Origin: a virus
IMG/VR virus record: IMGVR_UViG_3300042868_007692
Coordinates: 9,165-73,164 of that record
Strand: one strand, 5' to 3'
DNA: 64,000 bases
The notes under the pieces are model-generated. The model had not been told where the DNA came from, made no database searches, and saw nothing but the letters and a program-made list of their open reading frames with translations. The first letter of the stretch is position 1. Each line of letters opens with the position of its first letter. A program made the position numbers and the translations under genes. Below are positions 7,458-17,988 of this stretch, piece by piece.

Positions 7458-10178
7458 ATGGCTAAAATTTTGGTGTTAGCACCGTCAGGTTTCGGTAAGT
7501 CCACCAGTATAGGACAGATTCCAGAATTAGGAATTAAAGGGTTAACTCCTGAAGAGACTTTTCTTATTTCAGTAACTTCTAAACCTCTTCCATTTAAAGG
7601 GAGTGGTGCAGCATATCCAATATGCCAACCTGGAGATTTAAAATCAGGTAGAAGAATTATTACTGATGATGCAAAAGCTATATCAGAAATCTTCTTAGCT
7701 TTAGTTGCAAGTCCTTACAAGAATATTGTATGGGATGACAGTAACTATGTTATGCAGAATTGGTATATGGCTAATGCTTTAGCTAAAGGTTGGGATAGAA
7801 TGGTGTCCTCTTTCTAAGAAATTAGAAAGTAATTAAATTGGGCAAAAACGGTGAAAAGATTATAGATTTTTCATAAAAAATGTTTATATTTGTACAAAAT
7901 AAAATTGTATGAAAATAAATAATTATAATAAAGACTTCTTTAAAGAAATTGACACAGAACTCAAGGCTTACATTTTAGGTTATATTGTAGCAGATGGTTG
8001 TATAACTATTGAACACAGACCTTTAAAACCCAATAATCCTATAAAAAGAGTTCAGTTTCAACCTTCTATAGATGATTTACAAGTAATTACTTTGATCAGA
8101 GATGTTATTGCACCTACAAATAAGTTGACTATTGTCACTAATAAAAGAGAAGGTAACAGAAAAGATACAGTAAAACTTAGACTTGCGTGTACTGAAATAG
8201 TTAAAGACTTAATGACCCTTTACAATGTAAAACCTAGAAAAACTTATGATACAACTTTTAGATTTCCTAATATTAGAGAAGATTTAAAAAGACATTTTAT
8301 AAGAGGTTTTATAGATGGAGATGGTAGTATAGGTACAAGACATTTTTCTATGATTTGCAACTCAAAATTATTTGCAGAAGATATTTTAAAAGAATTTTTA
8401 AAAGCTATACCTAATTTGAAATACTATATTTATGATGAAAATAGAAGTCAAACTACTTATTATTCTTTACACTTTAGTGTAAATAAAAAATCAAGAGTTG
8501 ATTTATTTAATTTTATCTACAAAAACTGTAATTTCAGGTTAAATAGAAAGTATGAAAAAGCTCTCAATGCCGTGTTAAACAGTAACAGTAAAGAGTTATT
8601 GTCAATGTAACGCATAGGAACTGAAACTCTTAATAAGAGAATATAATGTTCCCAAGAGTGTCCAATACCTGACCAAATAAAGTTGAAGGTAAAAATGTAT
8701 GCTGACCTTACAGGAGATATAAGTACTGTAAGAACTAGAGGATAAAAAGCCTTTAGGATAACAAGGGTGGCCCCTAAACAAATTGGTTTTATGATGGGTA
8801 GAATCTTTGATGCTATTGAGAAGTTAGATGCTGCAGGTAAAAATGTAATCATCTTAGCTCATGGTGACAGTGTTCCTGGACCTGATGGTAGAATCTATAT
8901 GAAGTACAAATCTACAGGTAAGATGGTTGCTTAACATCAGCCATTATCTATCTAACTGCTGGGATACCCTAAAGCTCTATAAGCTACAACATAATTTGAA
9001 AAAGTAAGTGTGAATGCTAAAAATTATAGAGATGGCTAATGGGCAATCAGCAGCCAAGACCCTAAGACTTAAGATGTTATGGGTAAGGTTCACAGACTAT
9101 CCTCTGTTGTGGAGGAGTACAGAGAAAAGTGATTATTTTCTTTGGAAATGGTAGACATAAGTTTTGCATATAACCAGATGTTTTGTATATTTGTACTATG
9201 AAAACAGTGAAAATATATAAGCTTATAGACCCTACTTCATTAGAAGTAAGGTATGTAGGCAAGACAGAAAAAACACTAAAGCATAGACTATCTATGCATG
9301 TTACTACTTCAATCAAAAACAAAAATAAAACTCATAAAGAAGCTTGGATAACCGGGTTATCTTTTATGGGTTTTAGACCCTTAATTGAACTTATAGAGGA
9401 AGTTAATTTTGAAGATTGGCAAGAAAAAGAGATTTATTGGATAACTCAATTTGAAAACTTAACTAACACTTGTAGTGGAGGCATAGGAGGAACAGGTAGA
9501 GTATATTCAGAATCAGAAAGATTGCAAAGGTCAATTACTATGAAAAAGCTTATTGGTGAAGGTAAAATAGATTATACAGAAAGGGCACTAAAAATTTCTC
9601 AATCTCATAAAGGTAAAATATTATCTGAAATGACTAAAGAAAAATTAAGACAGTGCAATTTAGGTAAAAAACAATCTAGGGAACAAAAATTAAAAACAGC
9701 TAGAAAAGTAATAAGAATTGATAAAGAAAATAACAAAGTAGTGTTTGACAGTCTTGCAGAAGCAAGTATAGCTTTAGGTGCAAATACACAAAAACAAATA
9801 AGTATTTTTAGAGGAAATATTTGTACTGTGTGTAAAGGCAATTTAAAAAGCTATAAAGGTTATAAATGGCAATATTATGAAGATATAGTCGATTCCTTAT
9901 AGAAATATAAGGGTATGTTGTGTTAAGGATAATCTCTTAACTGAATAGCAACTTACAAACAAAGTGATGAGTATTTGACTGTAGAGGGTAAAGTAGACGT
10001 AACTCTTATTGGTATTAGTAGATATGATGCTACTGATAAAAAAGCAGTAAAAGAGTTCTTAACCAATGAAAATGAGCAATATTCTTCAGCTAAATCTCCT
10101 ATTGGAATGTTTGATAAACAATTCATTCCTAATGATTTAGGACATGTAGTAGAAAAAATTGCTGAGTATTATGGCTAG
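7458..10178 (+). CDS. P-loop AAA ATPase (AAA_24/Sak4-like), spliced: exons 7458-7796, 8770-8927, 9965-10178 (236 aa)
   Basis: Walker A APSGFGKST, Walker B VWDD. Spliced product reads KGWD|APKQIG..IILAH..STGKMV|DEYLTVEG..AKSPIGMF..IPNDL. Confidence 0.88.
7885..7892 (+). promoter_or_regulatory. TAnnTTTG -7 promoter element upstream of the LAGLIDADG ORF
   Basis: TATATTTG 16 nt before ATG 7909. Confidence 0.55.
7909..8610 (+). CDS. Intron-encoded double-motif LAGLIDADG homing endonuclease
   Basis: YILGYIVADGCI and FIRGFIDGDGSI. Confidence 0.92.
   Translation: MKINNYNKDFFKEIDTELKAYILGYIVADGCITIEHRPLKPNNPIKRVQFQPSIDDLQVITLIRDVIAPTNKLTIVTNKREGNRKDTVKLRLACTEIVKDLMTLYNVKPRKTYDTTFRFPNIREDLKRHFIRGFIDGDGSIGTRHFSMICNSKLFAEDILKEFLKAIPNLKYYIYDENRSQTTYYSLHFSVNKKSRVDLFNFIYKNCNFRLNRKYEKALNAVLNSNSKELLSM
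9163..9193 (+). promoter_or_regulatory. Bacteroidota-type promoter for the intron endonuclease
   Basis: TTTG 9163-9166, 19-nt spacer, TATATTTG 9186-9193, ATG at 9198. Confidence 0.7.
9198..9902 (+). CDS. Intron-encoded GIY-YIG homing endonuclease with NUMOD3-like repeats and C-terminal HTH
   Basis: KIYKLIDP..VRYVGKT..HRL; KISQSHKGKILSEMTKEKLRQCNLGKKQS. Confidence 0.9.
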   Translation: MKTVKIYKLIDPTSLEVRYVGKTEKTLKHRLSMHVTTSIKNKNKTHKEAWITGLSFMGFRPLIELIEEVNFEDWQEKEIYWITQFENLTNTCSGGIGGTGRVYSESERLQRSITMKKLIGEGKIDYTERALKISQSHKGKILSEMTKEKLRQCNLGKKQSREQKLKTARKVIRIDKENNKVVFDSLAEASIALGANTQKQISIFRGNICTVCKGNLKSYKGYKWQYYEDIVDSL

Positions 10179-10803: not shown

Positions 10804-11577
10804 ATGTCACAATTACAAGGATACGGATTTGTATCAGATTCAGATGAATCATTGAAAACTAAAACAGGTGCTAAATTTGGTGGTAACTTTGGTGTTGCTT
10901 TCTTAACTAAATTTGCTTACAGTGCAAATGTAGCTAAAGCAGGCCAAGAAGCTAGAGAAGCTATTGAGTTAGAAGTAACTGTAGGAGAAAGAGGTTACAA
11001 AGAATGGATTAACCCTGTAGATCAAGTAAAGGATAAGAATAATGTAGTAATTACAGACAAAAACTCTCCTGAGTACATTGCTGGGTTTAATGCTCTTATT
11101 GTTCAACAAAATGCTACAGTGACTCACTACTTGAAAGCAGTAGGTGTAACTGAAGAGGCTTTGAGAGCAGCATTTACAACGGCTCCAGTAAGTTTTGCAG
11201 ATTATGCACAAAGAATTTGTTCACTTTTACCTATTGGTTATGATAAAAAACCACTAGATTTGTTCCTTGAATATCAATGGAATTTTGGTAAGAAACAAGA
11301 TGGGTCTTTAAATGATAAGACTTATCCAACTTTACCAAAAAACATGAAAGGTGGTTACTTTATTGTTCCTGCTCAACCTGGAGTTTGGGTAGAAGCTAAA
11401 AGTGAAGATGGAAGATTAAGTTACAACAATTCTAATGGACAAAAACATCCATTTGAAAGAGATGCTAACTTTATGTCTTCTCACAAAGGTACTCAACAAG
11501 TAATGGGAGCTTCAGTAGCTGCAGCTTCTCCAATGGGAGCTATGACAGCAGCAGCTCCTGGTAATGGTTGGTCATAA
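10804..11577 (+). CDS. Putative ssDNA-binding/replication protein
   Basis: Lies between the AAA ATPase and primase; low-complexity tail ending in W. Function inferred from position only. Confidence 0.5.
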   Translation: MSQLQGYGFVSDSDESLKTKTGAKFGGNFGVAFLTKFAYSANVAKAGQEAREAIELEVTVGERGYKEWINPVDQVKDKNNVVITDKNSPEYIAGFNALIVQQNATVTHYLKAVGVTEEALRAAFTTAPVSFADYAQRICSLLPIGYDKKPLDLFLEYQWNFGKKQDGSLNDKTYPTLPKNMKGGYFIVPAQPGVWVEAKSEDGRLSYNNSNGQKHPFERDANFMSSHKGTQQVMGASVAAASPMGAMTAAAPGNGWS

Positions 11578-11609: not shown

Positions 11610-12638
11610 ATGAGCTTATTTCAATACAATTCAGATAAACTTGATAGAAGAGGATATATAAGTAAGGAAAGTATTTTGTCTTTAGTTACTCAAGAAGATG
11701 TATTTGAGTTAGTGTTCAAATTTAAACCTGAAGAATTTGAGTATGTAGTATCTCCTTTAAGAAATGATGATGTACCAGGATGTTGGTTTTCTTATCATGA
11801 TAATGGTACTCTCTATTTTGTAGACTTTGGTAATTCTAGGACTCATAGTGATTGTTTTAATATAGTCCAGGACTATTACAAATTTCCAAACTTCTATTTG
11901 ACTTTAGAATTTATTCATAACTCTTTAATTAGAGGTAAGACTGAATTAAAGGAAATAGAACCTAAAAAAATAATCCAAAAAGTATCCAAAGAAGGAGTCA
12001 AACTCTTAATAGAAGCAAGACCATTTAGTGAGCAAGATGGTTATTTCTGGTCTAAGTATGGTATTAGTAAAGCCAATCTAAAAGAAGACAGAGTTTTTCC
12101 TATTCATAGATTATATGCTTTGAATACTAAAACAGGAAGTCATGCTATTGAATGCAAAGATTTAGCATACAGTTACACTGATTTTCCTGAAGCTAGAAAG
12201 AAAATCTATTTTCCTTTAAGACAAGGAAAGAATAGGTTCATTACTAATTGTAATAAAGATGATGTAGGTGGCATCAACTCTCTGTCTCAATATAGTAAGC
12301 AACTTATTATTTCTAAAAGCTACAAGGATTATAGAGTACTTAAAAATAATGGAAAAAATGTAGTTTGGTTTCAAAATGAAGGTATGATACCCAATAATGA
12401 AATTATAAACAAATTGGTTAAACTTTATTCAGAAATTATTGTATGGTTTGACAATGATCAGCCTGGAATTATAGCTTCAGAAAAAGTCAAACAACATATA
12501 AATTCCATTATTCCAAGTAGAGCTAAAAATCTATGGCTACCTGAGAGAGGGTTAGAAATAGGGGTTAAAGACCCTTCAGATTGTATAGCTAAAGACCCTA
12601 TTTATTTTCAACAATTCTTAAAAGACTTTACAAAATGA
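11610..12638 (+). CDS. DnaG-type (TOPRIM) primase
   Basis: SPLRNDDVPGC..VDFG..SDCF N-terminal domain; ISKSYKD, WFDNDQPG, KDPSD. Confidence 0.85.
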   Translation: MSLFQYNSDKLDRRGYISKESILSLVTQEDVFELVFKFKPEEFEYVVSPLRNDDVPGCWFSYHDNGTLYFVDFGNSRTHSDCFNIVQDYYKFPNFYLTLEFIHNSLIRGKTELKEIEPKKIIQKVSKEGVKLLIEARPFSEQDGYFWSKYGISKANLKEDRVFPIHRLYALNTKTGSHAIECKDLAYSYTDFPEARKKIYFPLRQGKNRFITNCNKDDVGGINSLSQYSKQLIISKSYKDYRVLKNNGKNVVWFQNEGMIPNNEIINKLVKLYSEIIVWFDNDQPGIIASEKVKQHINSIIPSRAKNLWLPERGLEIGVKDPSDCIAKDPIYFQQFLKDFTK

Positions 12639-13174
12639 ATTTCAATCATATTCATTATTCTTGGAAACCCCTTCTAAGAGAATTTAATACAGATGCTTTT
12701 CTTTACTTTAAAAATGAAGTCCTTCCAAAAGAAAAATATTACCCTGAAGCTGATAAAGTTTTCAGGGTTTTTTCTATGCCTGTGTCAGCTATTAAAATAG
12801 TAGTTATTGGCTCATGGAAACACCCTAATATCAGAGAAATAGAAAAGCAAGGCTTATTCTGGCTACCTATTTCCTTAACACAAGGTGTAGATGTGGACCA
12901 CACAGAATATTGGGAGCCCTTCATTAAAAAGGTAGTGTATTTTATATCCAAGAGTAACCCTACTATTTGGATAATGCCTACAACAGAAGCACAAAGATTT
13001 ACAGCTAATCTACCTGTCAAATCTATATTTAATGTGCTAAGATATGATGATAGCCTTATTAATCAGATTCCCATCAATGTAGATTACAATTATGTGTTTA
13101 AAGGTATTTATGTAAATACTGAACACATAAACATCCTCCTAAAGAGATTAGGTAGGGAAACAATTAATTGGTAA
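12635..13174 (+). CDS. Degenerate family-1 uracil-DNA glycosylase homolog
   Basis: HYSWKPLL..YYPEADKVFRVFSMPVSAIKIVVIG matches the UNG N-terminus, but GQDPY is replaced by GSWKH. Confidence 0.65.
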   Translation: MNFNHIHYSWKPLLREFNTDAFLYFKNEVLPKEKYYPEADKVFRVFSMPVSAIKIVVIGSWKHPNIREIEKQGLFWLPISLTQGVDVDHTEYWEPFIKKVVYFISKSNPTIWIMPTTEAQRFTANLPVKSIFNVLRYDDSLINQIPINVDYNYVFKGIYVNTEHINILLKRLGRETINW

Positions 13175-13193: not shown

Positions 13194-13943
13194 ATGAGTG
13201 AAGTACAAGCTCCGGTTACTACTGAAAGAGAAGTAACAATTTATGCCACTAGAGGTGGTAACATGAAAAAAATCATGACATCTGTTAAAACTTGGGGAGA
13301 ATTACAACCCTTAGTTAGAGGAGAAGGTTTTGATTTAGGTTCATTATTAGCTGCTGAGAACATCAACAAGACAGACCTTGTTAATGATTTAGCAATATTA
13401 CCTGAAGGAAACTTCAGATTATTCTTAAGACCAAAACAAACTAAGTCTGGTGCAACTCCTGATAGAAAAGAATGTTTTGCTATTATCAAAGCTCATTTAG
13501 CTGTTTACCCTAATGATAAACAAAAGTTTATCATTGATGGTAAAAACATGACTCAGTTATCTACTCCTGTAGTACAGGATTTAGTGGCTAAGTATTGTAA
13601 AGGTACTGATATTGCATCTGCTGTTGCTGAAGCTCCAGTTAAAGAGAAAGCTCCAAAAGCTGAAGTTGTAAAAAAAGTAGAAGATGTTGTAGAGTCTGTA
13701 AAAGAATCTAAAACTGAAAATACTCCAGCTACACCTCTTACAGATGCTGTGAGAGTTGAAGAAGCTTTAAAACTTATTGCTCCTTTATCAGGTTATGACT
13801 CTTATGCTAAAGTAGAAAAGCATTTGAATAGACTTTCTGATGAAATAGCTATTGCAAATGCTCCTGCTCCAGAAATGAAAGAAGAAACTGAAGAAGAGGC
13901 TTTAGCTAGAGAAGCTAGAGAACTGTCTGCAGGTTACAGATAA
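13194..13943 (+). CDS. Putative ubiquitin-like (beta-grasp) domain protein; Ubl ends at KSG86, followed by a 163-aa extension
   Basis: Strand-strand-helix pattern EVTIYAT..KKIMTSVKTWGELQPLV, final strand FRLFLRPKQTKSG; adjacent to JAB and E1 genes. Confidence 0.65.
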   Translation: MSEVQAPVTTEREVTIYATRGGNMKKIMTSVKTWGELQPLVRGEGFDLGSLLAAENINKTDLVNDLAILPEGNFRLFLRPKQTKSGATPDRKECFAIIKAHLAVYPNDKQKFIIDGKNMTQLSTPVVQDLVAKYCKGTDIASAVAEAPVKEKAPKAEVVKKVEDVVESVKESKTENTPATPLTDAVRVEEALKLIAPLSGYDSYAKVEKHLNRLSDEIAIANAPAPEMKEETEEEALAREARELSAGYR

Positions 13944-13950
13944 TATTAAT

Positions 13951-13986
13951 AAAGGGCTTATGTAATGTAAGCCCTTTTAATTTTTT
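13951..13986 (+). terminator. Intrinsic terminator after the Ubl gene
   Basis: AAAGGGCTTAT..TGTAAGCCCTTT stem followed by TAATTTTTT. Confidence 0.75.
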
Positions 13987-13991
13987 ATATT

Positions 13992-15185
13992 ATGTATATA
14001 GATGATCATCAATTACCATTTTATGAAGAAGTAGGTCAAATACTTCATAATGCTTTATTAATGAATACTCATAAAAACAAAGAATTTTTACAGTTTTTGT
14101 TTGATAAAGGTAAACTACAATTACATGGCTACCCTAATCCTAATCAAAAAGCTATCAATGAATTTTTTAGACTTTTAGATTTATTTGAAGCTAAATACAA
14201 AAGTTTTTATGACCTAGGTTTTCATACTAAAGATGGATACTTACAACCTTACTTTAAAGTCTTATATCCCAAGTTTACTATTGAAAATAGTGCAGGAGAA
14301 AGCCATCAAATAAGAGATTTAATAGTAGTTCATAGAATAGCTTATAATACAAATGAAGAAGGTCATATCTATACTAGAAAACCTTTAGGAGGCAGACTAA
14401 GTAAATTTAAACTAGAAGTAGTAGGAGGTTATCAACAAAGTCATTTAGGTTCTCATTCAAATTGGAAAAATGACCCTTTTTATACTTCAGAATTTTGTGT
14501 AGGTGGAGATACTGATGTAAGTAGAATGATAGCTGAATTTAAAGTAGAGATGGATTGGGACAGATATGAATTATACTTATTTTGTGTTGATTCTATGGTT
14601 ACTTGGGAGTCTTTAGAAGGTGTTCCTTATACAAAAATAAGAAATATTAAGAATGCTCTTAATAACCAGGTTACTTCTGTAGATGCATCTTATGTAAGAA
14701 GAGTTGTTGATAAAATTACAAAAAATGAAATTGCTTTAGATTTAGACTTTTACATAGAGAATGGTTTATACAGAATTAGACCTAATGAAAAAGCTAATGA
14801 GTTTATTAAAAATATAGTTTTACAAACTCTTACTTTTGAGCAATACAAAGAAATCTTAGTTAGTAGAGTACCTAATACTTTCAATGAATTTCTTCAAATG
14901 AAAGCTGAGCAAGATGCTCAACAAAACTATAAAATAAGTTATCCTACTAGATACACTATTTTTAGAGGCAAAAAAGTCTTTGCCAAAATACTTAAAGAAG
15001 ACACAAGAAATGAACCTGTTGTCTCTTTAGAAAACCTTATTGTTTATCCTAATTTTTTAAAAGATGTCCTTAGTCAACTTGAGTCAAGAATCTATAGCAA
15101 AGCAGTTACCCAGAGTGGAATTAAAATCTACAATTCCCTTGGTAATGCCAATAGAAGTATTACATCAGATTCAGTATCTGTGTAA
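13992..15185 (+). CDS. Putative prokaryotic E2-like (Ubl-conjugating) protein
   Basis: QSHL..SEFCVGG resembles the E2 HPN..xCL active-site region, followed by helices; lies between Ubl and JAB genes. Confidence 0.5.
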   Translation: MYIDDHQLPFYEEVGQILHNALLMNTHKNKEFLQFLFDKGKLQLHGYPNPNQKAINEFFRLLDLFEAKYKSFYDLGFHTKDGYLQPYFKVLYPKFTIENSAGESHQIRDLIVVHRIAYNTNEEGHIYTRKPLGGRLSKFKLEVVGGYQQSHLGSHSNWKNDPFYTSEFCVGGDTDVSRMIAEFKVEMDWDRYELYLFCVDSMVTWESLEGVPYTKIRNIKNALNNQVTSVDASYVRRVVDKITKNEIALDLDFYIENGLYRIRPNEKANEFIKNIVLQTLTFEQYKEILVSRVPNTFNEFLQMKAEQDAQQNYKISYPTRYTIFRGKKVFAKILKEDTRNEPVVSLENLIVYPNFLKDVLSQLESRIYSKAVTQSGIKIYNSLGNANRSITSDSVSV

Positions 15186-16311
15186 AAATATACCAAAAGT
15201 AGAGTGGTCAGGTGCTCTATTTTATACTACAGAAGGTAGTATTGAAAAACCTGGAACATTCAAAATTACTTTAAAGACAATTCTTCCATTAGATATGGGT
15301 AGTTCAGCTTATACTGAATACAATCTTGATGAAAGATTTATGGATTTTATTGAAGAAGATTTTGAAGAAAGATGTACTTGGAAATTAGGTCATATTCATA
15401 GTCATAATGTAATGAGTGTTTTCTTCTCAGGTACAGATATGGCAGAGCTTAATGACAATGCTCCAGCACATAATTTTTATCTTTCTTTGATAGTAAATAA
15501 CTATATGGACTTTATTGCCAAAGTTGCTTTTATTGGAGAAGCTAAAAAAGATATTAAACAGGTTCCTTATACAGCTAAGAATGCTGAAGGCCATAATTAT
15601 ATCATTGAAAGACAAGACTTTGAAGTTAAGACTAAAAAGTTGTTTATTTATGATTGTGACATTGATACTCCTAAGAATACAATCTTAGTGACAGATCAAT
15701 TTTCTGCTCAAGTAGCTAAAATTATGGAGCCTAAACCTGTAAAAAAAGTAGAATCTAAATGGCCTGCTACTACTACTACTACTACTACAGGAAAGGGATG
15801 GCAAAGAAAGGATAATACCAGGCAATTCAAATCACAAGAAGACAGGGAAATGGAAAGTTGGAACAAAAGCTTTCAGAAAGAAACTAAAAAACCTTTCAAT
15901 AATTGGGAAGATTGGGAATTACCTATTTCTACTTTACTGGCTGAAGATTTAGAAGAAGAAGATTTAAAAGCAATGTATATTTATAATTTTGCTAAAGAAT
16001 TATTTGATTTTACAGGAGGTTCTACACAAGAAGAAACTTTAGAAGATGTTTTAGATATGTTAGTAGAGTTTAACTTAACTCCTTCTGAATTAGCTAAATC
16101 CGTAATTACAGAGTATGCTAAAGATTTTAATAAACATTTTCCTAAAGCTAATGCTACTGAATTTGTTCAGTATACCCATGAAACTTTAGATTTATTAGAA
16201 GATGTGAAACAACTTTATCCTGAAATTGGATTAACTATTAGAACTATTAGTTCTATGATTACTAAATTTATAGAAAATGAGACAGACAAGAGACACAACC
16301 CAGCAGTCTAG
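15064..16311 (+). CDS. JAB/MPN+ (JAMM) metalloprotease with long C-terminal extension
   Basis: EWSGALF (catalytic Glu) and GHIHSHNVMSVFFSGTD (HxH-x7-S-x2-D). Confidence 0.9.
   Translation: MSLVNLSQESIAKQLPRVELKSTIPLVMPIEVLHQIQYLCKNIPKVEWSGALFYTTEGSIEKPGTFKITLKTILPLDMGSSAYTEYNLDERFMDFIEEDFEERCTWKLGHIHSHNVMSVFFSGTDMAELNDNAPAHNFYLSLIVNNYMDFIAKVAFIGEAKKDIKQVPYTAKNAEGHNYIIERQDFEVKTKKLFIYDCDIDTPKNTILVTDQFSAQVAKIMEPKPVKKVESKWPATTTTTTTGKGWQRKDNTRQFKSQEDREMESWNKSFQKETKKPFNNWEDWELPISTLLAEDLEEEDLKAMYIYNFAKELFDFTGGSTQEETLEDVLDMLVEFNLTPSELAKSVITEYAKDFNKHFPKANATEFVQYTHETLDLLEDVKQLYPEIGLTIRTISSMITKFIENETDKRHNPAV
15769..15789 (+). repeat. (ACT)6ACA trinucleotide repeat encoding Thr7 in the JAB linker
   Basis: actactactactactactaca. 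Confidence 0.85.
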
Positions 16312-16978
16312 ATTTAAAGATGCTCCATGGTTTCCTAAAAACAATGAAGTGTGCATGGTAGGTGGAGCAGGTGGTATTGGTTCTTGGTTATGTTATTTCT
16401 TAACTAAGATTGGTTTTAGAGTTAACCTCTATGACTTTGATACTGTAGAAGACCATAATCTAGGTGGTCAATTATTTATGCAATCTGACTTAGGTCAACC
16501 TAAAGTAACAGCAGTAGCAAGAGTTGTAAACTCTTTTTGTAATACTCCTATAGCTACATTCAATGAAAGAATTGATATGAATACAATGACACATTACTTT
16601 ATGTTTTCTGCTTTTGATAATATGGAAGCAAGAAATGCATTGTTTCATGTCTGGAAAAAGTCCTGGGGCTCAGTTCCTTTAGCGGTGACTCCAATCTTCA
16701 TAGATGGTAGATTAGAGATAGAGCAATTACAGATATTTTGTGTTACTCCAGAGAATGCTGACAGGTATGAAAGAGACCATTTGTTTCATGATTCAGTAGT
16801 AGAAGAAGCACCTTGTACTATGAAACAAAGTTCTCATACAGCAGCTATGATAGGAACTCTTATGACTTCCTATTTTACTAATCATATTGCTAACATTTAT
16901 AGTGGAGAGACTATCAGAGAAGTCCCTTTCTACTATGAATTTGTAGTTCCTATGAACTACTCAGCTTCTGAACTATGA
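16277..16978 (+). CDS. E1-like ThiF/MoeB-family adenylyltransferase
   Basis: GGAGGIGS, DFDTVEDHNLGGQ, K, AFDN..AR, FIDGR; candidate catalytic Cys in EEAPCT. Confidence 0.93.
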   Translation: MRQTRDTTQQSRFKDAPWFPKNNEVCMVGGAGGIGSWLCYFLTKIGFRVNLYDFDTVEDHNLGGQLFMQSDLGQPKVTAVARVVNSFCNTPIATFNERIDMNTMTHYFMFSAFDNMEARNALFHVWKKSWGSVPLAVTPIFIDGRLEIEQLQIFCVTPENADRYERDHLFHDSVVEEAPCTMKQSSHTAAMIGTLMTSYFTNHIANIYSGETIREVPFYYEFVVPMNYSASEL

Positions 16979-17988
16979 GAGTAATATCCTCTACATTAGG
17001 AAGCTTAACCAATGATCCTTTTAAAATTACTGTATTAGCAGCTAATACCTACATTCCTATCTATGCTTTTCACACATATTATCAGGAAGAAGGTGTTAAA
17101 TTCTATAAAAGACCTTCTTTAGAGAAAGGTACTCTTAGAAAACCTAATACTTTAAAGCACATAAAGGATGCTCTAGAAATGGCTATTGCCCCAAGAAGAA
17201 TTCTTATAGGTAATAAAAATTATTACTTTATAAAAGGTGCAATGTACACTGAGGATGGGAATCCTCTTATGGTGTTAGGTATGTCTAAAGAAGCTTTTAA
17301 AAATCCTGATATTCCTAATTTCTCTGATAATTATGGAGAATCAGCTAGTCTTTTTGACTATAAAAATTTTGTTATGTTTTACTCCACATCTTTCTTTACT
17401 GAGCCTAGTCTTGCTCCTTTAAACAGAAGATTTCAAAAAGAAATATTAATGTCTTGCTATGAAAAAGGTATAGAGGTAAGAGTGATTACCTCATCAGAAA
17501 TTGAAAAGAATACCTTTGCAAACATTTTTGAAATCCCTAAAGCTAACTCTGTTAGTCAATTAGAGGAGTACATGAACAAAGTACTACCAACAATTTTATA
17601 CACAAAAGAAGAGGACACTTTTGTATTTGAAGAGTTGACAGTACCTGAAGTTGTTCAAAACCATGAATTATCTGTGGAAGAAGAAGCTCTACTATTTGAT
17701 TCTGAAACTAGTCAGGAGTTGCCTGGAGTTAATCCTACAACTTTTGATATTACTCTTAATACAGAAGAAGTAGTTGAATTACTTCCTATTTTTAGAGACC
17801 CTGAAATAGAAGAATTAGAAAGAGAAGCTGCAACTTGGGATTCTGCCCATACAGAACCTGCTTATGTAGCTCCTGAGTATCCTATAGTTCCAGAAGAAAG
17901 TATTATTCTAACACCTATAGGAGAAAGGGTAACTAATGTTTCTTTTAGAACCACTAGACCAATAGAGCTTATTGATGACACAGAATAA
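16975..17988 (+). CDS. Hypothetical protein with acidic C-terminus, translationally coupled to E1
   Basis: ATGA overlap with the E1 stop; last ~120 aa E/P/T-rich. Confidence 0.75.
   Translation: MRVISSTLGSLTNDPFKITVLAANTYIPIYAFHTYYQEEGVKFYKRPSLEKGTLRKPNTLKHIKDALEMAIAPRRILIGNKNYYFIKGAMYTEDGNPLMVLGMSKEAFKNPDIPNFSDNYGESASLFDYKNFVMFYSTSFFTEPSLAPLNRRFQKEILMSCYEKGIEVRVITSSEIEKNTFANIFEIPKANSVSQLEEYMNKVLPTILYTKEEDTFVFEELTVPEVVQNHELSVEEEALLFDSETSQELPGVNPTTFDITLNTEEVVELLPIFRDPEIEELEREAATWDSAHTEPAYVAPEYPIVPEESIILTPIGERVTNVSFRTTRPIELIDDTE

What the first reader, a model, noticed from the sequence alone, without database searches (positions are those of the whole stretch)
13194..13943. Ubl made as a precursor fusion with a buried C-terminal glycine (KSG86|A)
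Seen: the Ubl-like domain ends RPKQTKSG (Gly at 13449-13451) and continues into a small helical domain, an A/E/K/P-rich linker and an acidic helix. Known: E1 needs a free C-terminal Gly, and JAB proteases mature Ubl precursors. Eukaryotic ubiquitin is likewise made as fusions. Inference: the neighbouring JAB cuts after G86, releasing a ~9.5 kDa modifier and a 163-aa second product that may have its own role or act as a safety cap.
Basis: inference. Interest (0 to 1): 0.75.

Follow-up and report, generated by a model that had tools for sequence, protein, structure and literature searches.

The report
Phage ubiquitin-like protein made as precursor
A phage related to the crAss-like gut viruses encodes a ubiquitin-like tag as the front part of a longer protein, and related phages indicate the chain is divided right after one unchanging glycine, although the cut itself has not been shown.

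Summary
Gene 13194-13943 (+) encodes 249 aa, and G86 is codon 13449-13451. An alignment-based AlphaFold2 model (pLDDT 86) gives a ubiquitin-type beta-grasp at residues 12-80, a tail ending T-K-S-G86, a helical domain (91-134), a disordered A/E/K/P-rich linker and a helical C-terminal part.

In 143 diverse homologs only K84 and G86 are invariant. A variable, gap-prone linker follows G86.

Natural variants place the boundary at this glycine:
- 3 of 71 complete homologous genes end one residue after it and are followed by a terminator-like hairpin.
- 10 of 71 carry unrelated tails.
- In crAss-like phage cr106_1, an HNH endonuclease gene splits the homolog of crAss001 gp79 two residues after the glycine.

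A JAMM peptidase gene with all five catalytic residues invariant, an E1-like ThiF gene and an unknown 397-aa gene follow in 52 of 52 loci with enough flank.

Cleavage, the protease responsible and conjugation remain unshown.

Closest proven precedents are BubAB cut by BubCD and BilA trimmed by BilC. This scan noted the same module earlier on three other genomes. I rate it a new variant of a known kind.

The parts
13194..13943 (+). Precursor gene, 249 aa plus stop (PHROG phrog_15560; homolog of crAss001 gp79)
   Evidence: ORF. phrog_15560 at E 1.7e-32. No Pfam, NCBIfam or PADLOC family. hhalign of crAss001 gp79 against alignment A2: probability 99%, E 2.3e-18.
13194..13451 (+). Ubl part, residues 1-86: ubiquitin-type beta-grasp (12-80) plus tail ending T83-K84-S85-G86
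   Evidence: AF2 model. Ubiquitin-superfold matches only. K84 and G86 are the only invariant columns of 143 sequences.
13443..13451 (+). K84-S85-G86 codons. The proposed scissile bond lies between 13451 and 13452 (G86|A87).
   Evidence: Sequence. Of 146 representatives covering the site: G 145, K 143, S 120 and A 20 at position 85. The residue after the Gly takes 16 different identities.
13452..13466 (+). Variable linker, residues 87-91
   Evidence: Mean top-residue frequency 0.35 and gap-prone, with insertions of 0-12 residues in homologs. pLDDT dips at 81-90.
13464..13595 (+). Helical domain D2, residues 91-134 (conserved G-K-N-x-T-Q-L-S-T stretch). Function unknown; a helix-extended-helix DNA-binding role is only a guess.
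   Evidence: Helices 91-104, 106-112 and 124-134. N118 and T120 are at least 90% conserved. No Pfam family in any consistent way among 143 members.
13596..13739 (+). Disordered A/E/K/P/V-rich linker, residues 135-182
   Evidence: pLDDT 46-60. Mean top-residue frequency 0.19, gaps 0.39.
13740..13940 (+). Helical C-terminal part D3, residues 183-249, ending in an acidic helix and a G-Y/F motif
   Evidence: Helices 184-198, 204-222 and 233-246. E233, L237, E240 and G247 are 73-76% conserved. C-terminal ends are listed.
13951..13977 (+). Terminator-like hairpin (12-bp stem, then a T run) directly after the precursor gene
   Evidence: 7 such sites in the region against 2.5 +/- 1.6 in shuffles; this one has the longest stem. 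Equivalent hairpins follow the three stand-alone Ubl genes.
13992..15185 (+). Conserved 397-aa partner of unknown fold (X397; phrog_15310) with invariant S150, H151, C169, G171, E206, S207 and G210
   Evidence: Present in 52 of 52 loci with enough flank. No Pfam, PDB-sequence or Atlas match.
15064..16311 (+). JAMM/JAB metallopeptidase (N-terminal about 230 aa) with a helical C-terminal extension. The ORF overlaps X397.
   Evidence: Motif E47...H112-x-H114-x7-S122-x2-D125 is invariant in 50 sequences. 46 of 50 members hit Pfam Prok-JAB at E <= 0.1, best 1.9e-4, all below the gathering score. PADLOC JAB E 0.013.
16277..16978 (+). E1-like adenylating enzyme (ThiF family, 233 aa, single domain)
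   Evidence: Pfam ThiF 8.8e-16. Best PDB sequences are NEDD8 E1 UBA3 at 5.7e-6, then MoeB, SUMO E1 and MccB. NCBIfam ThiF 2.5e-14 and PRTRC_ThiF 1.6e-11. Nucleotide-loop glycines, D53, D55, K76, D114 and R119 are invariant; C180 is kept in 98% of 46 sequences.
16975..17988 (+). Conserved 337-aa neighbour of unknown function (Y337)
   Evidence: phrog_15446, 2.3e-7. Found in 46 loci by iterative search.

Best explanation
The gene encodes a precursor of a phage ubiquitin-like protein (Ubl).

Shown here:
- Residues 1-86 fold as a ubiquitin-type beta-grasp whose tail ends in an invariant Lys-Ser-Gly.
- The family's domain boundary lies exactly at this Gly.
- The gene always travels with a JAMM peptidase gene and an E1-like gene.

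Inferred mechanism:
1. The neighbouring JAMM peptidase cuts the G86|A87 bond.
2. This frees an 86-residue Ubl with a C-terminal Gly, plus a 163-residue second protein (helical domain, disordered linker, helical acidic C-terminus) that has its own role.
3. The E1-like enzyme adenylates the freed Gly. Its near-invariant Cys180 may take the Ubl as a thioester.
4. The Ubl is passed to protein targets, possibly through the conserved 397-aa protein, which carries an invariant Ser-His and Cys.
5. No homolog seen ends exactly at the Gly. Every form is capped by at least one residue, so the peptidase would gate activation.

The module sits in the replication gene block, so the targets are most likely replication or host proteins handled early in infection. 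That last point is a guess.
For: Fold:
- AF2 model at pLDDT 86.
- Only ubiquitin-superfold matches.
- G86 falls within about one residue of the terminal Gly of ubiquitin, MOCS2A and ISG15.

Conservation:
- K84 and G86 are the only invariant columns of 143 sequences.
- Gly is present in 145 of 146 representatives covering the site and in 119 of 119 close homologs.
- The next residue takes 16 identities.

Boundary at the Gly (71 complete ORFs among 80 viral loci):
- 3 end one residue after the Gly (L059, L075, L081). Each is followed by a terminator-like hairpin and then directly by the X397 gene.
- 10 carry unrelated 64-99-aa tails.
- 41 have the full three-part form.

Natural split:
- crAss001 gp79 (225 aa) is a fusion.
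- Its relative in cr106_1 is 82% identical over residues 1-90 and stops two residues after the Gly.
- An HNH endonuclease gene follows, then a separate 130-aa gene whose last 50 residues match the gp79 C-terminus (38% identity, E 3e-8).

Partners:
- X397, JAMM and E1 are present in 52 of 52 loci with at least 3.6 kb downstream.
- The JAMM catalytic residues are invariant in 50 sequences, including those from the three stand-alone loci.

Complex prediction, JAMM 1-235 + Zn + precursor 1-140, verdict 'weak support':
- Score 0.60; best of 3 controls 0.01.
- The mark was reached by 58 of 80 solved complexes and 2 of 110 mismatched pairs.
- A score of 0.60 or under was seen in only 7 of those 80 solved complexes and in both mismatches that passed.
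- Runs agree in at least 82% of contacts; partner pLDDT is at least 80.
- The calibration holds only roughly, because I used my own alignments and a riding zinc.
- JAMM-Ubl complexes are solved, so the pass may reflect likeness only.

Precedent:
- JAB enzymes cut BubAB after G229 (PMC11601596, passages read).
- JAB enzymes cut BilA after G97 (PMC10557695, passages read).
Against: No experiment or read-out here shows a cut, an adenylate or a conjugate.

Conservation and sampling:
- Residues 92-134 are well conserved in this clade, so there is no lasting drop after G86.
- The 80 viral loci were retrieved with a pattern that contains K-[SA]-G. They cannot be used to measure conservation of the Gly.

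Family and fold searches:
- The Ubl matches no Pfam, NCBIfam or PADLOC family.
- Fold-search scores are middling: Foldseek E >= 2.8e-3 and Z <= 8.4.
- JAMM assignment by profile stays below Pfam's cut-off.

Enzymes:
- No E2 was recognised.
- The E1-like protein has an invariant Gly where UBA3 has the Arg of N-L-N-R-Q. From recall, that Arg contacts ATP in MoeB/ThiF, so catalytic competence is unverified.

Tail chemistry: the tail ends Ser-Gly, not Gly-Gly.

Complex prediction: the verdict is only 'weak support' and gives no contacts.
Confidence: 0.62

Rival explanations
1. The protein is cut as proposed, but the Ubl is a sulfur carrier of the ThiS/MoaD/QbsE kind. The E1-like enzyme adenylates G86 and a thiocarboxylate is formed. 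The sulfur goes into a small molecule or a nucleic-acid base rather than the Ubl being attached to proteins.
For: The E1-like protein's best curated families are ThiF (2.5e-14) and MoeB, and it is a minimal single-domain enzyme of 233 aa. No E2 was recognised. JAB enzymes are linked to ThiS/MoaD-like sulfur carriers in gene neighbourhoods (Iyer et al. 2006, PMC1779556, passages). MOCS2A is among the fold matches.
Against: The tail ends Ser-Gly (S 120, A 20 and G 3 of 146 at position 85), not the Gly-Gly usual for sulfur carriers (recalled). No rhodanese, cysteine desulfurase, PP-loop or synthase partner appeared in the Pfam scan of eight neighbours. The best PDB sequence match of the E1 is a true Ubl E1, UBA3. 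A 397-aa partner with invariant Ser-His and Cys is always present.
Confidence: 0.13
2. The protein is never cut. The N-terminal beta-grasp is a built-in docking domain, as in UBX or Rad23-type Ubl-domain proteins. It tethers the helical C-terminal part to the E1-like or JAMM protein, and the invariant K-S-G is a binding loop or hinge.
For: Most homologs keep the fusion: 58 of 71 complete ORFs keep at least one of the two downstream domains. The best fold matches include non-conjugated UBX and UBL domains. Rad23-like multi-domain proteins of giant viruses appear in the viral fold search.
Against: Three genes end one residue after the Gly with nothing else attached. Ten swap the tail for unrelated sequence. 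cr106_1 encodes the two halves as separate genes broken at Gly+2. An adenylating E1-like enzyme and an intact JAMM peptidase accompany the gene in 52 of 52 loci, which a docking domain would not require.
Confidence: 0.13
3. The precursor is cut at G86, but by a host protease or another phage protease. The neighbouring JAMM enzyme acts only to remove the Ubl from its targets.
For: JAB/JAMM enzymes in Bil systems both pre-process and deconjugate (PMC10557695, passages). The complex prediction gives only weak support for JAMM-precursor binding. X397 has an invariant His and Cys that could belong to a thiol enzyme.
Against: JAMM genes with intact catalytic residues are kept even where the cap is a single residue. 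The two proven bacterial cases use the operon's own JAB enzyme.
Confidence: 0.08

Closest known systems
Type I Bub pre-protein BubAB, cut by the JAB domain of BubCD (Ye et al. 2024 preprint, PMC11601596; passages read)
   Same: A prokaryotic Ubl is translated as the front of a longer protein. The operon's own JAB/JAMM peptidase cuts immediately after a conserved internal Gly (G229, by Edman sequencing). This exposes the Gly for a ThiF/UBA5-like homodimeric E1, and the released passenger is itself functional.
   Different: In Bub the passenger is the E2 (BubB), the JAB is fused to the E1, and a DUF6527 serine protease (BubE) is present. Catalysis there runs through Tyr/Ser oxyesters, and the operons are bacterial and linked to defence regulators. 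Here the passenger is an all-helical protein with no detectable E2 likeness, and JAMM and E1 are separate genes. The E1 keeps a near-invariant Cys. No DUF6527 appeared in the Pfam scan of eight neighbours. The system is encoded by the phage, in its replication block.
BilA (Ubl) pre-processed by BilC (JAB) in Bil/BilABCD systems (Chambers et al. 2023 preprint, PMC10557695; passages read)
   Same: The JAMM peptidase removes residues after a highly conserved Gly (G97|A98). Homologs carry short caps of up to nine residues, like the one- and two-residue caps of L059, L075, L081 and cr106_1. An E1 then adenylates the Gly.
   Different: Bil has a recognisable E2 (BilB) and a large E1 with tandem adenylation domains plus a Cys domain. 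Here the E1 is a 233-aa single domain (PADLOC BilD only E 0.0014 over part), and no BilB-like protein was detected. Bil is a bacterial anti-phage system; this module is in the phage.
Lambda/T1 tail assembly protein I (TAPI) with the JAB domain of TAPK (Iyer, Burroughs and Aravind 2006, PMC1779556; passages read)
   Same: A phage-encoded Ubl with a conserved Gly at the end of the beta-grasp, fused through a linker to a small C-terminal domain. It is predicted, not shown, to be released by a neighbouring JAB peptidase.
   Different: TAPI lies in the tail-assembly block beside TAPK and TAPJ and has no E1. Here the gene lies between primase/UDG-like genes and an E1-like gene, in the replication block. 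The C-terminal domains are unrelated as far as tested.
Eukaryotic ubiquitin fusion genes (ubiquitin-ribosomal protein fusions; recalled, no call)
   Same: The modifier is made as an N-terminal fusion to a functional passenger protein and released by cleavage after the terminal Gly.
   Different: The proteases differ and the passengers are ribosomal proteins. No sequence relationship was found (Pfam ubiquitin family not hit).

Membership tests
Ubiquitin-like modifiers activated by an E1 (functional class) | Ubiquitin-type beta-grasp fold | tested here: met
   AF2 model at pLDDT 86. All listed fold matches are ubiquitin-superfold domains, though with middling scores.
Ubiquitin-like modifiers activated by an E1 (functional class) | Conserved Gly at the end of the tail after the last strand | tested here: met
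   G86 is invariant in 143 aligned sequences and present in 145 of 146 representatives covering the site. It aligns within about one residue of the terminal Gly of ubiquitin, MOCS2A and ISG15.
Ubiquitin-like modifiers activated by an E1 (functional class) | The Gly becomes a free C-terminus (processing) | not testable with these tools
   Indirect only: stand-alone genes end at Gly+1, and there is a split gene at Gly+2 in cr106_1.
Ubiquitin-like modifiers activated by an E1 (functional class) | Cognate E1-like adenylating enzyme encoded alongside | tested here: met
   ThiF-family gene at 16277-16978, present in 52 of 52 loci with enough flank.
Ubiquitin-like modifiers activated by an E1 (functional class) | Adenylation, thioester and isopeptide conjugation | not testable with these tools
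   No biochemical read-out is available.
Pfam/NCBIfam Ubl sequence families (ubiquitin, ThiS, MoaD, Prok_Ub) | Profile match above threshold | tested here: not met
   0 families for the window protein. No Ubl family among the 25 most frequent hits of 143 members.
JAMM/JAB metallopeptidases (neighbour 15064-16311) | E ... H-x-H-x7-S-x2-D motif | tested here: met
   E47, H112, H114, S122 and D125 are invariant in 50 sequences.
JAMM/JAB metallopeptidases (neighbour 15064-16311) | Pfam Prok-JAB above the gathering score | tested here: not met
   Window protein E 0.087, 13.2 bits against a cut-off of 25. 46 of 50 members hit at E <= 0.1, best 1.9e-4. Profile against PDB sequences found no JAMM entry.
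Type I Bub (BubAB/BubCD/BubE) | Ubl fused to an E2 (UBC-like) passenger | tested here: not met
   The passenger, residues 87-249, is predicted all-helical and disordered with no strands. There are no family hits.
Type I Bub (BubAB/BubCD/BubE) | JAB fused to E1, and a DUF6527 protease present | tested here: not met
   JAMM and E1 are separate ORFs. No DUF6527 appeared in the Pfam scan of eight neighbours.
Bil (BilABCD) | E1 with tandem adenylation domains plus a Cys domain, and a BilB E2 | tested here: not met
   The E1 is 233 aa with a single domain. PADLOC BilD scores only E 0.0014 over residues 47-122. No PADLOC hit for X397, Y337 or the Ubl.
Lambda TAPI/TAPK tail-assembly Ubl | Location in the tail-assembly block beside TAPK and TAPJ | tested here: not met
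   Neighbours are primase, a UDG-like gene, E1 and a PD-(D/E)XK nuclease.
ThiS/MoaD sulfur carriers | C-terminal Gly-Gly and a sulfur-transfer or synthase partner | tested here: inconclusive
   The tail is Ser-Gly. No sulfurtransferase was recognised among the neighbours, but two neighbours have unknown folds.

The most novel reading that the evidence does not exclude
A large lineage of Bacteroidota phages carries its own ubiquitin-like conjugation system inside the replication module. The lineage includes cultured crAss-like phages such as crAss001 and the Flavobacterium FpV4 group. The modifier is translated in one piece with a second, possibly DNA-binding, protein, so the two are made in equal amounts and the modifier is armed only when the phage JAMM peptidase cuts. 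The always-present 397-aa protein, with invariant Ser-His and Cys, would then be a new kind of E2-like transferase. The system would tag phage replication proteins or host proteins, for example to regulate replication or to blunt host Ubl-based defences. That would mirror the bacterial Bil and Bub systems, with the phage as the user.
Probability: 0.3. Interest if true: 0.85.

Novelty: new variant of a known kind. Interest (0 to 1): 0.7.

Why it matters
Ubl conjugation in prokaryotes has so far been described as a bacterial defence against phages (Bil, Bub, type II CBASS). Here the same kind of machinery (Ubl, E1-like enzyme, JAMM peptidase) is a fixed part of the replication block of a widespread phage lineage. 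That lineage includes cultured crAss-like phages of human gut Bacteroides.

The genes are annotated only as 'hypothetical protein', 'metalloprotease domain' and 'thiamine biosynthesis protein ThiF'.

The precursor form gives a simple, testable handle: one bond, G86|A87, and two products. The natural variants (capped stand-alone Ubl, split gene, swapped tails) are ready-made controls.

If the system conjugates proteins, it would open the question of what a phage tags during infection. It would also supply a new Ubl family and possibly a new transferase fold.

Tried and rejected
True C-terminus as the E1 substrate. I considered G247 followed by Tyr-Arg and rejected it. G247 is only 73% conserved, and the tail after it varies from 0 to about 6 residues, with Asp or Asn in some clades. 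The stand-alone forms lack this end altogether.

Single-sequence AF2 fold. It gave a poor model (pLDDT 49) and was discarded in favour of the alignment-based model.

Stand-alone or fused forms by word-indexed search:
- 'shorter' gave 5 hits, all fragments or frameshifted records, none ending at the Gly.
- 'longer' gave none among 7987 scored candidates, which that tool itself calls weak evidence.
- The stand-alone forms came only from the viral-contig scan.

Identity of X397. All of these found nothing:
- Pfam on 50 members
- PDB sequence profile
- PADLOC and NCBIfam
- ESM Atlas

An E2-like or thiol-enzyme role rests only on the invariant residues.

Identity of the 163-aa passenger:
- ESM Atlas on residues 87-249 gave nothing.
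- Pfam on 143 members showed no consistent family.
- hhalign of the cr106_1 second ORF to the family profile was weak (probability 9%, E 0.0035), although it aligned to positions 89-133.
It is not a tool result.

Literature. Searches found no paper describing this phage module. The terms included crAss-like with ThiF (0 papers), crAss-like with ubiquitin (13 papers, listings seen), and crAss001 with gp76-gp79. One 2026 preprint (10.64898/2026.03.05.709809, passage read) mentions a gut-phage protein family with a UBA5-like fold in passing. The library lacks most subscription journals, and supplements were not seen.
Full report
WHAT IS THERE

The window is phage DNA. The region around the finding reads, all on the + strand:
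- a phrog_15339 gene (10804-11577)
- primase (11610-12638)
- a UDG-like gene (12635-13174)
- the target (13194-13943)
- a 397-aa unknown gene, X397 (13992-15185)
- a JAMM-type peptidase (15064-16311)
- a ThiF/E1-like gene (16277-16978)
- a 337-aa unknown gene (16975-17988)
- two nuclease-like genes

The nearest named relatives are the Flavobacterium psychrophilum phages of the FpV4 group, which have the same gene order. More distant relatives are crAss-like phages (Crassvirales), which carry the same block.

THE OBSERVATION

The ORF gives 249 aa, and G86 is codon 13449-13451, followed by A87.

A single-sequence fold was useless (pLDDT 49). With a 143-row alignment, AlphaFold2 gave pLDDT 86.1 and pTM 0.61:
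- a beta-beta-alpha-beta-...-beta unit at 12-80
- a confidence dip at 81-90
- three helices at 91-134
- a low-confidence A/E/K/P/V-rich stretch at about 140-182
- three helices at 184-246

Fold searches agree on a ubiquitin-type beta-grasp:
- Foldseek against PDB returned only ubiquitin-fold domains (UBX, DWNN, Hub1, SUMO, archaeal ubiquitin, MoaD). E was 2.8e-3 or weaker, and target-normalised TM was 0.59-0.72.
- VIA-align against 48,161 chains listed 50 rows, all ubiquitin-superfold, with Z 6.8-8.4.
- These scores are middling, and the tool warns that Z under 8 can be a common arrangement. The uniformity of the list and the secondary-structure order make the assignment safe enough.
- Ubiquitin 1-75 maps to model 12-84, MOCS2A 5-88 to 12-85, and ISG15 80-154 to 13-85. 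G86 therefore falls where Ubls have their terminal Gly.

CONSERVATION

The family is large. There are 618 proteins at E <= 1e-3 in the word-indexed search. The exhaustive search found 655 representative clusters at E <= 1e-3, of which 272 are at <= 1e-10.

I aligned the query with 142 of the best 150 representatives. Eight outside 185-300 aa were dropped. Findings from that alignment:
- Only K84 and G86 are invariant.
- R12, T19, W34, L37, L62, L69, P70, F74, N118 and T120 are at 90% or more.

A separate pairwise check used all 150 representatives:
- 146 cover the site.
- Gly is present in 145. The exception is P0261, a 124-aa aberrant record.
- Lys84 is present in 143.
- Position 85 is Ser in 120 and Ala in 20.
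- The residue after the Gly takes 16 identities.

Mean top-residue frequency by segment:

| Segment | Mean top-residue frequency |
|---|---|
| Ubl part | 0.59 |
| Linker 87-91 | 0.35 (insertions of 0-12 residues) |
| Helical domain 92-134 | 0.45 |
| Low-complexity stretch | 0.19 |
| Last helix | 0.42 |

Conservation therefore drops right after G86 but recovers. In this clade the tail is a conserved protein in its own right.

NATURAL VARIANTS FIX THE BOUNDARY

A scan of viral contigs gave 80 loci. The scan pattern contained K-[SA]-G, so these loci say nothing about conservation of the Gly.

Of 71 complete ORFs (9 more are cut by contig ends):

| Form | Count |
|---|---|
| Full three-part form | 41 |
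| Ubl plus the first helical domain | 16 |
| Ubl plus the C-terminal part | 1 |
| Ubl plus unrelated 64-99-aa tails | 10 |
| Ends one residue after the Gly (L059, L075, L081; 77-82 aa) | 3 |

Each of the three short genes is followed by a G+C-rich hairpin with a T run. The X397 gene then starts 58-95 nt later, with no room for a separate tail gene. The window's own gene is followed by the same kind of hairpin at 13951-13977.

Among named phages:
- crAss001 gp79 (225 aa) is a homolog of the fusion (hhalign probability 99%, E 2.3e-18, with K-S-G aligned).
- In the related cr106_1, the first gene is 82% identical to gp79 over residues 1-90 and stops two residues after the Gly.
- An HNH endonuclease gene follows 2 nt later.
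- Then comes a separate 130-aa gene whose last 50 residues match the gp79 C-terminus (38% identity, E 3e-8). Its N-terminal part aligns only weakly to the family's helical domain.

So the two halves can exist as separate polypeptides, the tail can be exchanged or lost, and the break is always at the invariant Gly. No form seen ends exactly at the Gly. Every form carries at least one capping residue.

THE PARTNERS

Iterative searches of the locus ORFs:
- X397, JAMM and E1 are present in 52 of 52 loci with at least 3.6 kb downstream of the Ubl gene.
- Primase is present in 78 of 78 loci with at least 2.5 kb upstream.
- The UDG-like gene is present in 61 of those 78.

JAMM protein:
- E47, H112, H114, S122 and D125 (the E...HxH-x7-S-x2-D motif) are invariant in 50 sequences, including those from the three short-Ubl loci.
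- 46 of 50 members touch Pfam Prok-JAB at E <= 0.1 (best 1.9e-4), all below the curated cut-off.

E1-like protein:
- Pfam ThiF 8.8e-16.
- Its best solved relatives are the NEDD8 E1 subunit UBA3, then MoeB, the SUMO E1 and MccB.
- It is a 233-aa single domain with the nucleotide-loop glycines, D53, D55, K76, D114 and R119 invariant, and C180 kept in 98% of 46 sequences.
- One oddity: an invariant Gly stands where UBA3 has the Arg of N-L-N-R-Q.

X397 has invariant S150, H151, C169, G171, E206, S207 and G210, but matches nothing.

A complex prediction of JAMM 1-235 with zinc and precursor 1-140 returned 'weak support':
- Score 0.60 against a best control of 0.01.
- The mark was reached by 58 of 80 solved complexes and 2 of 110 mismatches.
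- A score of 0.60 or under was seen in only 7 of those 80 solved complexes and in both passing mismatches.
- Runs agree in at least 82% of contacts; partner pLDDT is at least 80.
- No contacts were given. The calibration holds only roughly here, and likeness to solved JAMM-Ubl complexes may explain the pass.

HOW IT MOST LIKELY WORKS

Shown:
- a ubiquitin-fold domain with an invariant tail Gly
- a domain boundary at that Gly
- constant company of a JAMM peptidase and an E1-like enzyme

Inferred: the JAMM enzyme cuts G86|A87, the E1-like enzyme adenylates the freed Gly, and the Ubl is passed on, perhaps through X397, to protein targets. The 163-aa product has a separate role. It is conserved and kept as its own gene in cr106_1, but it is dispensable for the Ubl system, since it is absent in three loci.

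Rivals:
- a sulfur-carrier use of the Ubl
- an uncut docking-domain protein
- cutting by a different protease

COMPARISON WITH WHAT IS KNOWN

- The nearest proven case is the Type I Bub pre-protein BubAB, cut after G229 by the JAB domain of BubCD (PMC11601596, passages).
- BilC trims BilA after G97, and homologs carry caps of up to nine residues (PMC10557695, passages).
- Iyer et al. 2006 predicted JAB release of the Ubl of lambda tail assembly protein I (PMC1779556, passages).
- The present system fails the defining features of each of these as a family. There is no E2 passenger, no JAB-E1 fusion, no DUF6527, no large BilD-type E1 and no tail-module context. It works like them.
- I found no paper on this phage module in seven searches.
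- One 2026 preprint mentions a UBA5-like gut-phage protein family in passing.

EARLIER NOTES OF THIS SCAN

Three earlier reports on other genomes describe the same kind of precursor in crAss-like phages. They pointed me to the Bub and Bil papers, whose relevant passages I then read myself. My analysis was otherwise done before I saw them.

VERDICT

- It is a new variant of a known kind.
- Interest 0.7.

Noticed in passing
window 15064-15185 (X397 / JAMM overlap): The JAMM ORF overlaps the end of the X397 ORF. The median overlap is 122 nt across 60 loci, using first-ATG starts. The JAMM ORF lies in the +1 frame relative to X397 in 59 of 60 loci. This may be simple inheritance of an overlapping gene pair, a later true start (Met28 precedes the conserved M-P-x-E-V-L), or a programmed frameshift that fuses the two.
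   Followed up: partly
L026 7001-7437: In this contig, which ends here, the reading frame runs from the Ubl part straight after K-S-G into sequence resembling the C-terminal half of the primase. It could be an assembly chimera or a rearrangement whose junction coincides with the Gly.
   Followed up: no
L084 1505-2020 (cr106_1): A free-standing HNH endonuclease gene sits exactly between the Ubl gene and the gene for the former C-terminal half. This is a homing-endonuclease insertion at a functional domain boundary.
   Followed up: partly
window 7909-8610 and 9183-9902: A LAGLIDADG homing endonuclease gene lies just upstream of the replication block (Pfam 7.9e-7 and 5.4e-6). A second ORF there looks GIY-YIG-like by eye but has no Pfam hit at E <= 0.01. 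cr111_1 has an annotated GIY-YIG endonuclease at a comparable place.
   Followed up: partly
L083 5045-6196 (crAss001 gp76) and L084 4985-6196: The ThiF-like proteins of crAss001 and cr106_1 are about 383-403 aa. The match to the window's 233-aa E1 covers only their C-terminal part. They therefore carry an extra N-terminal region of about 150 aa of unknown nature.
   Followed up: no
phage collection: Weaker E1 homologs (27.8% identity, E about 1e-7) occur in roughly 228-kb Xanthomonas and Erwinia jumbo phages. This is probably a different Ubl/E1 cassette.
   Followed up: no
BFVD hit A0A7M1RYT6 (cr126_1, 308 aa): A crAss-like homolog is labelled as containing a ribosomal bL12 C-terminal domain. 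This suggests yet another kind of passenger fused behind the Ubl.
   Followed up: no
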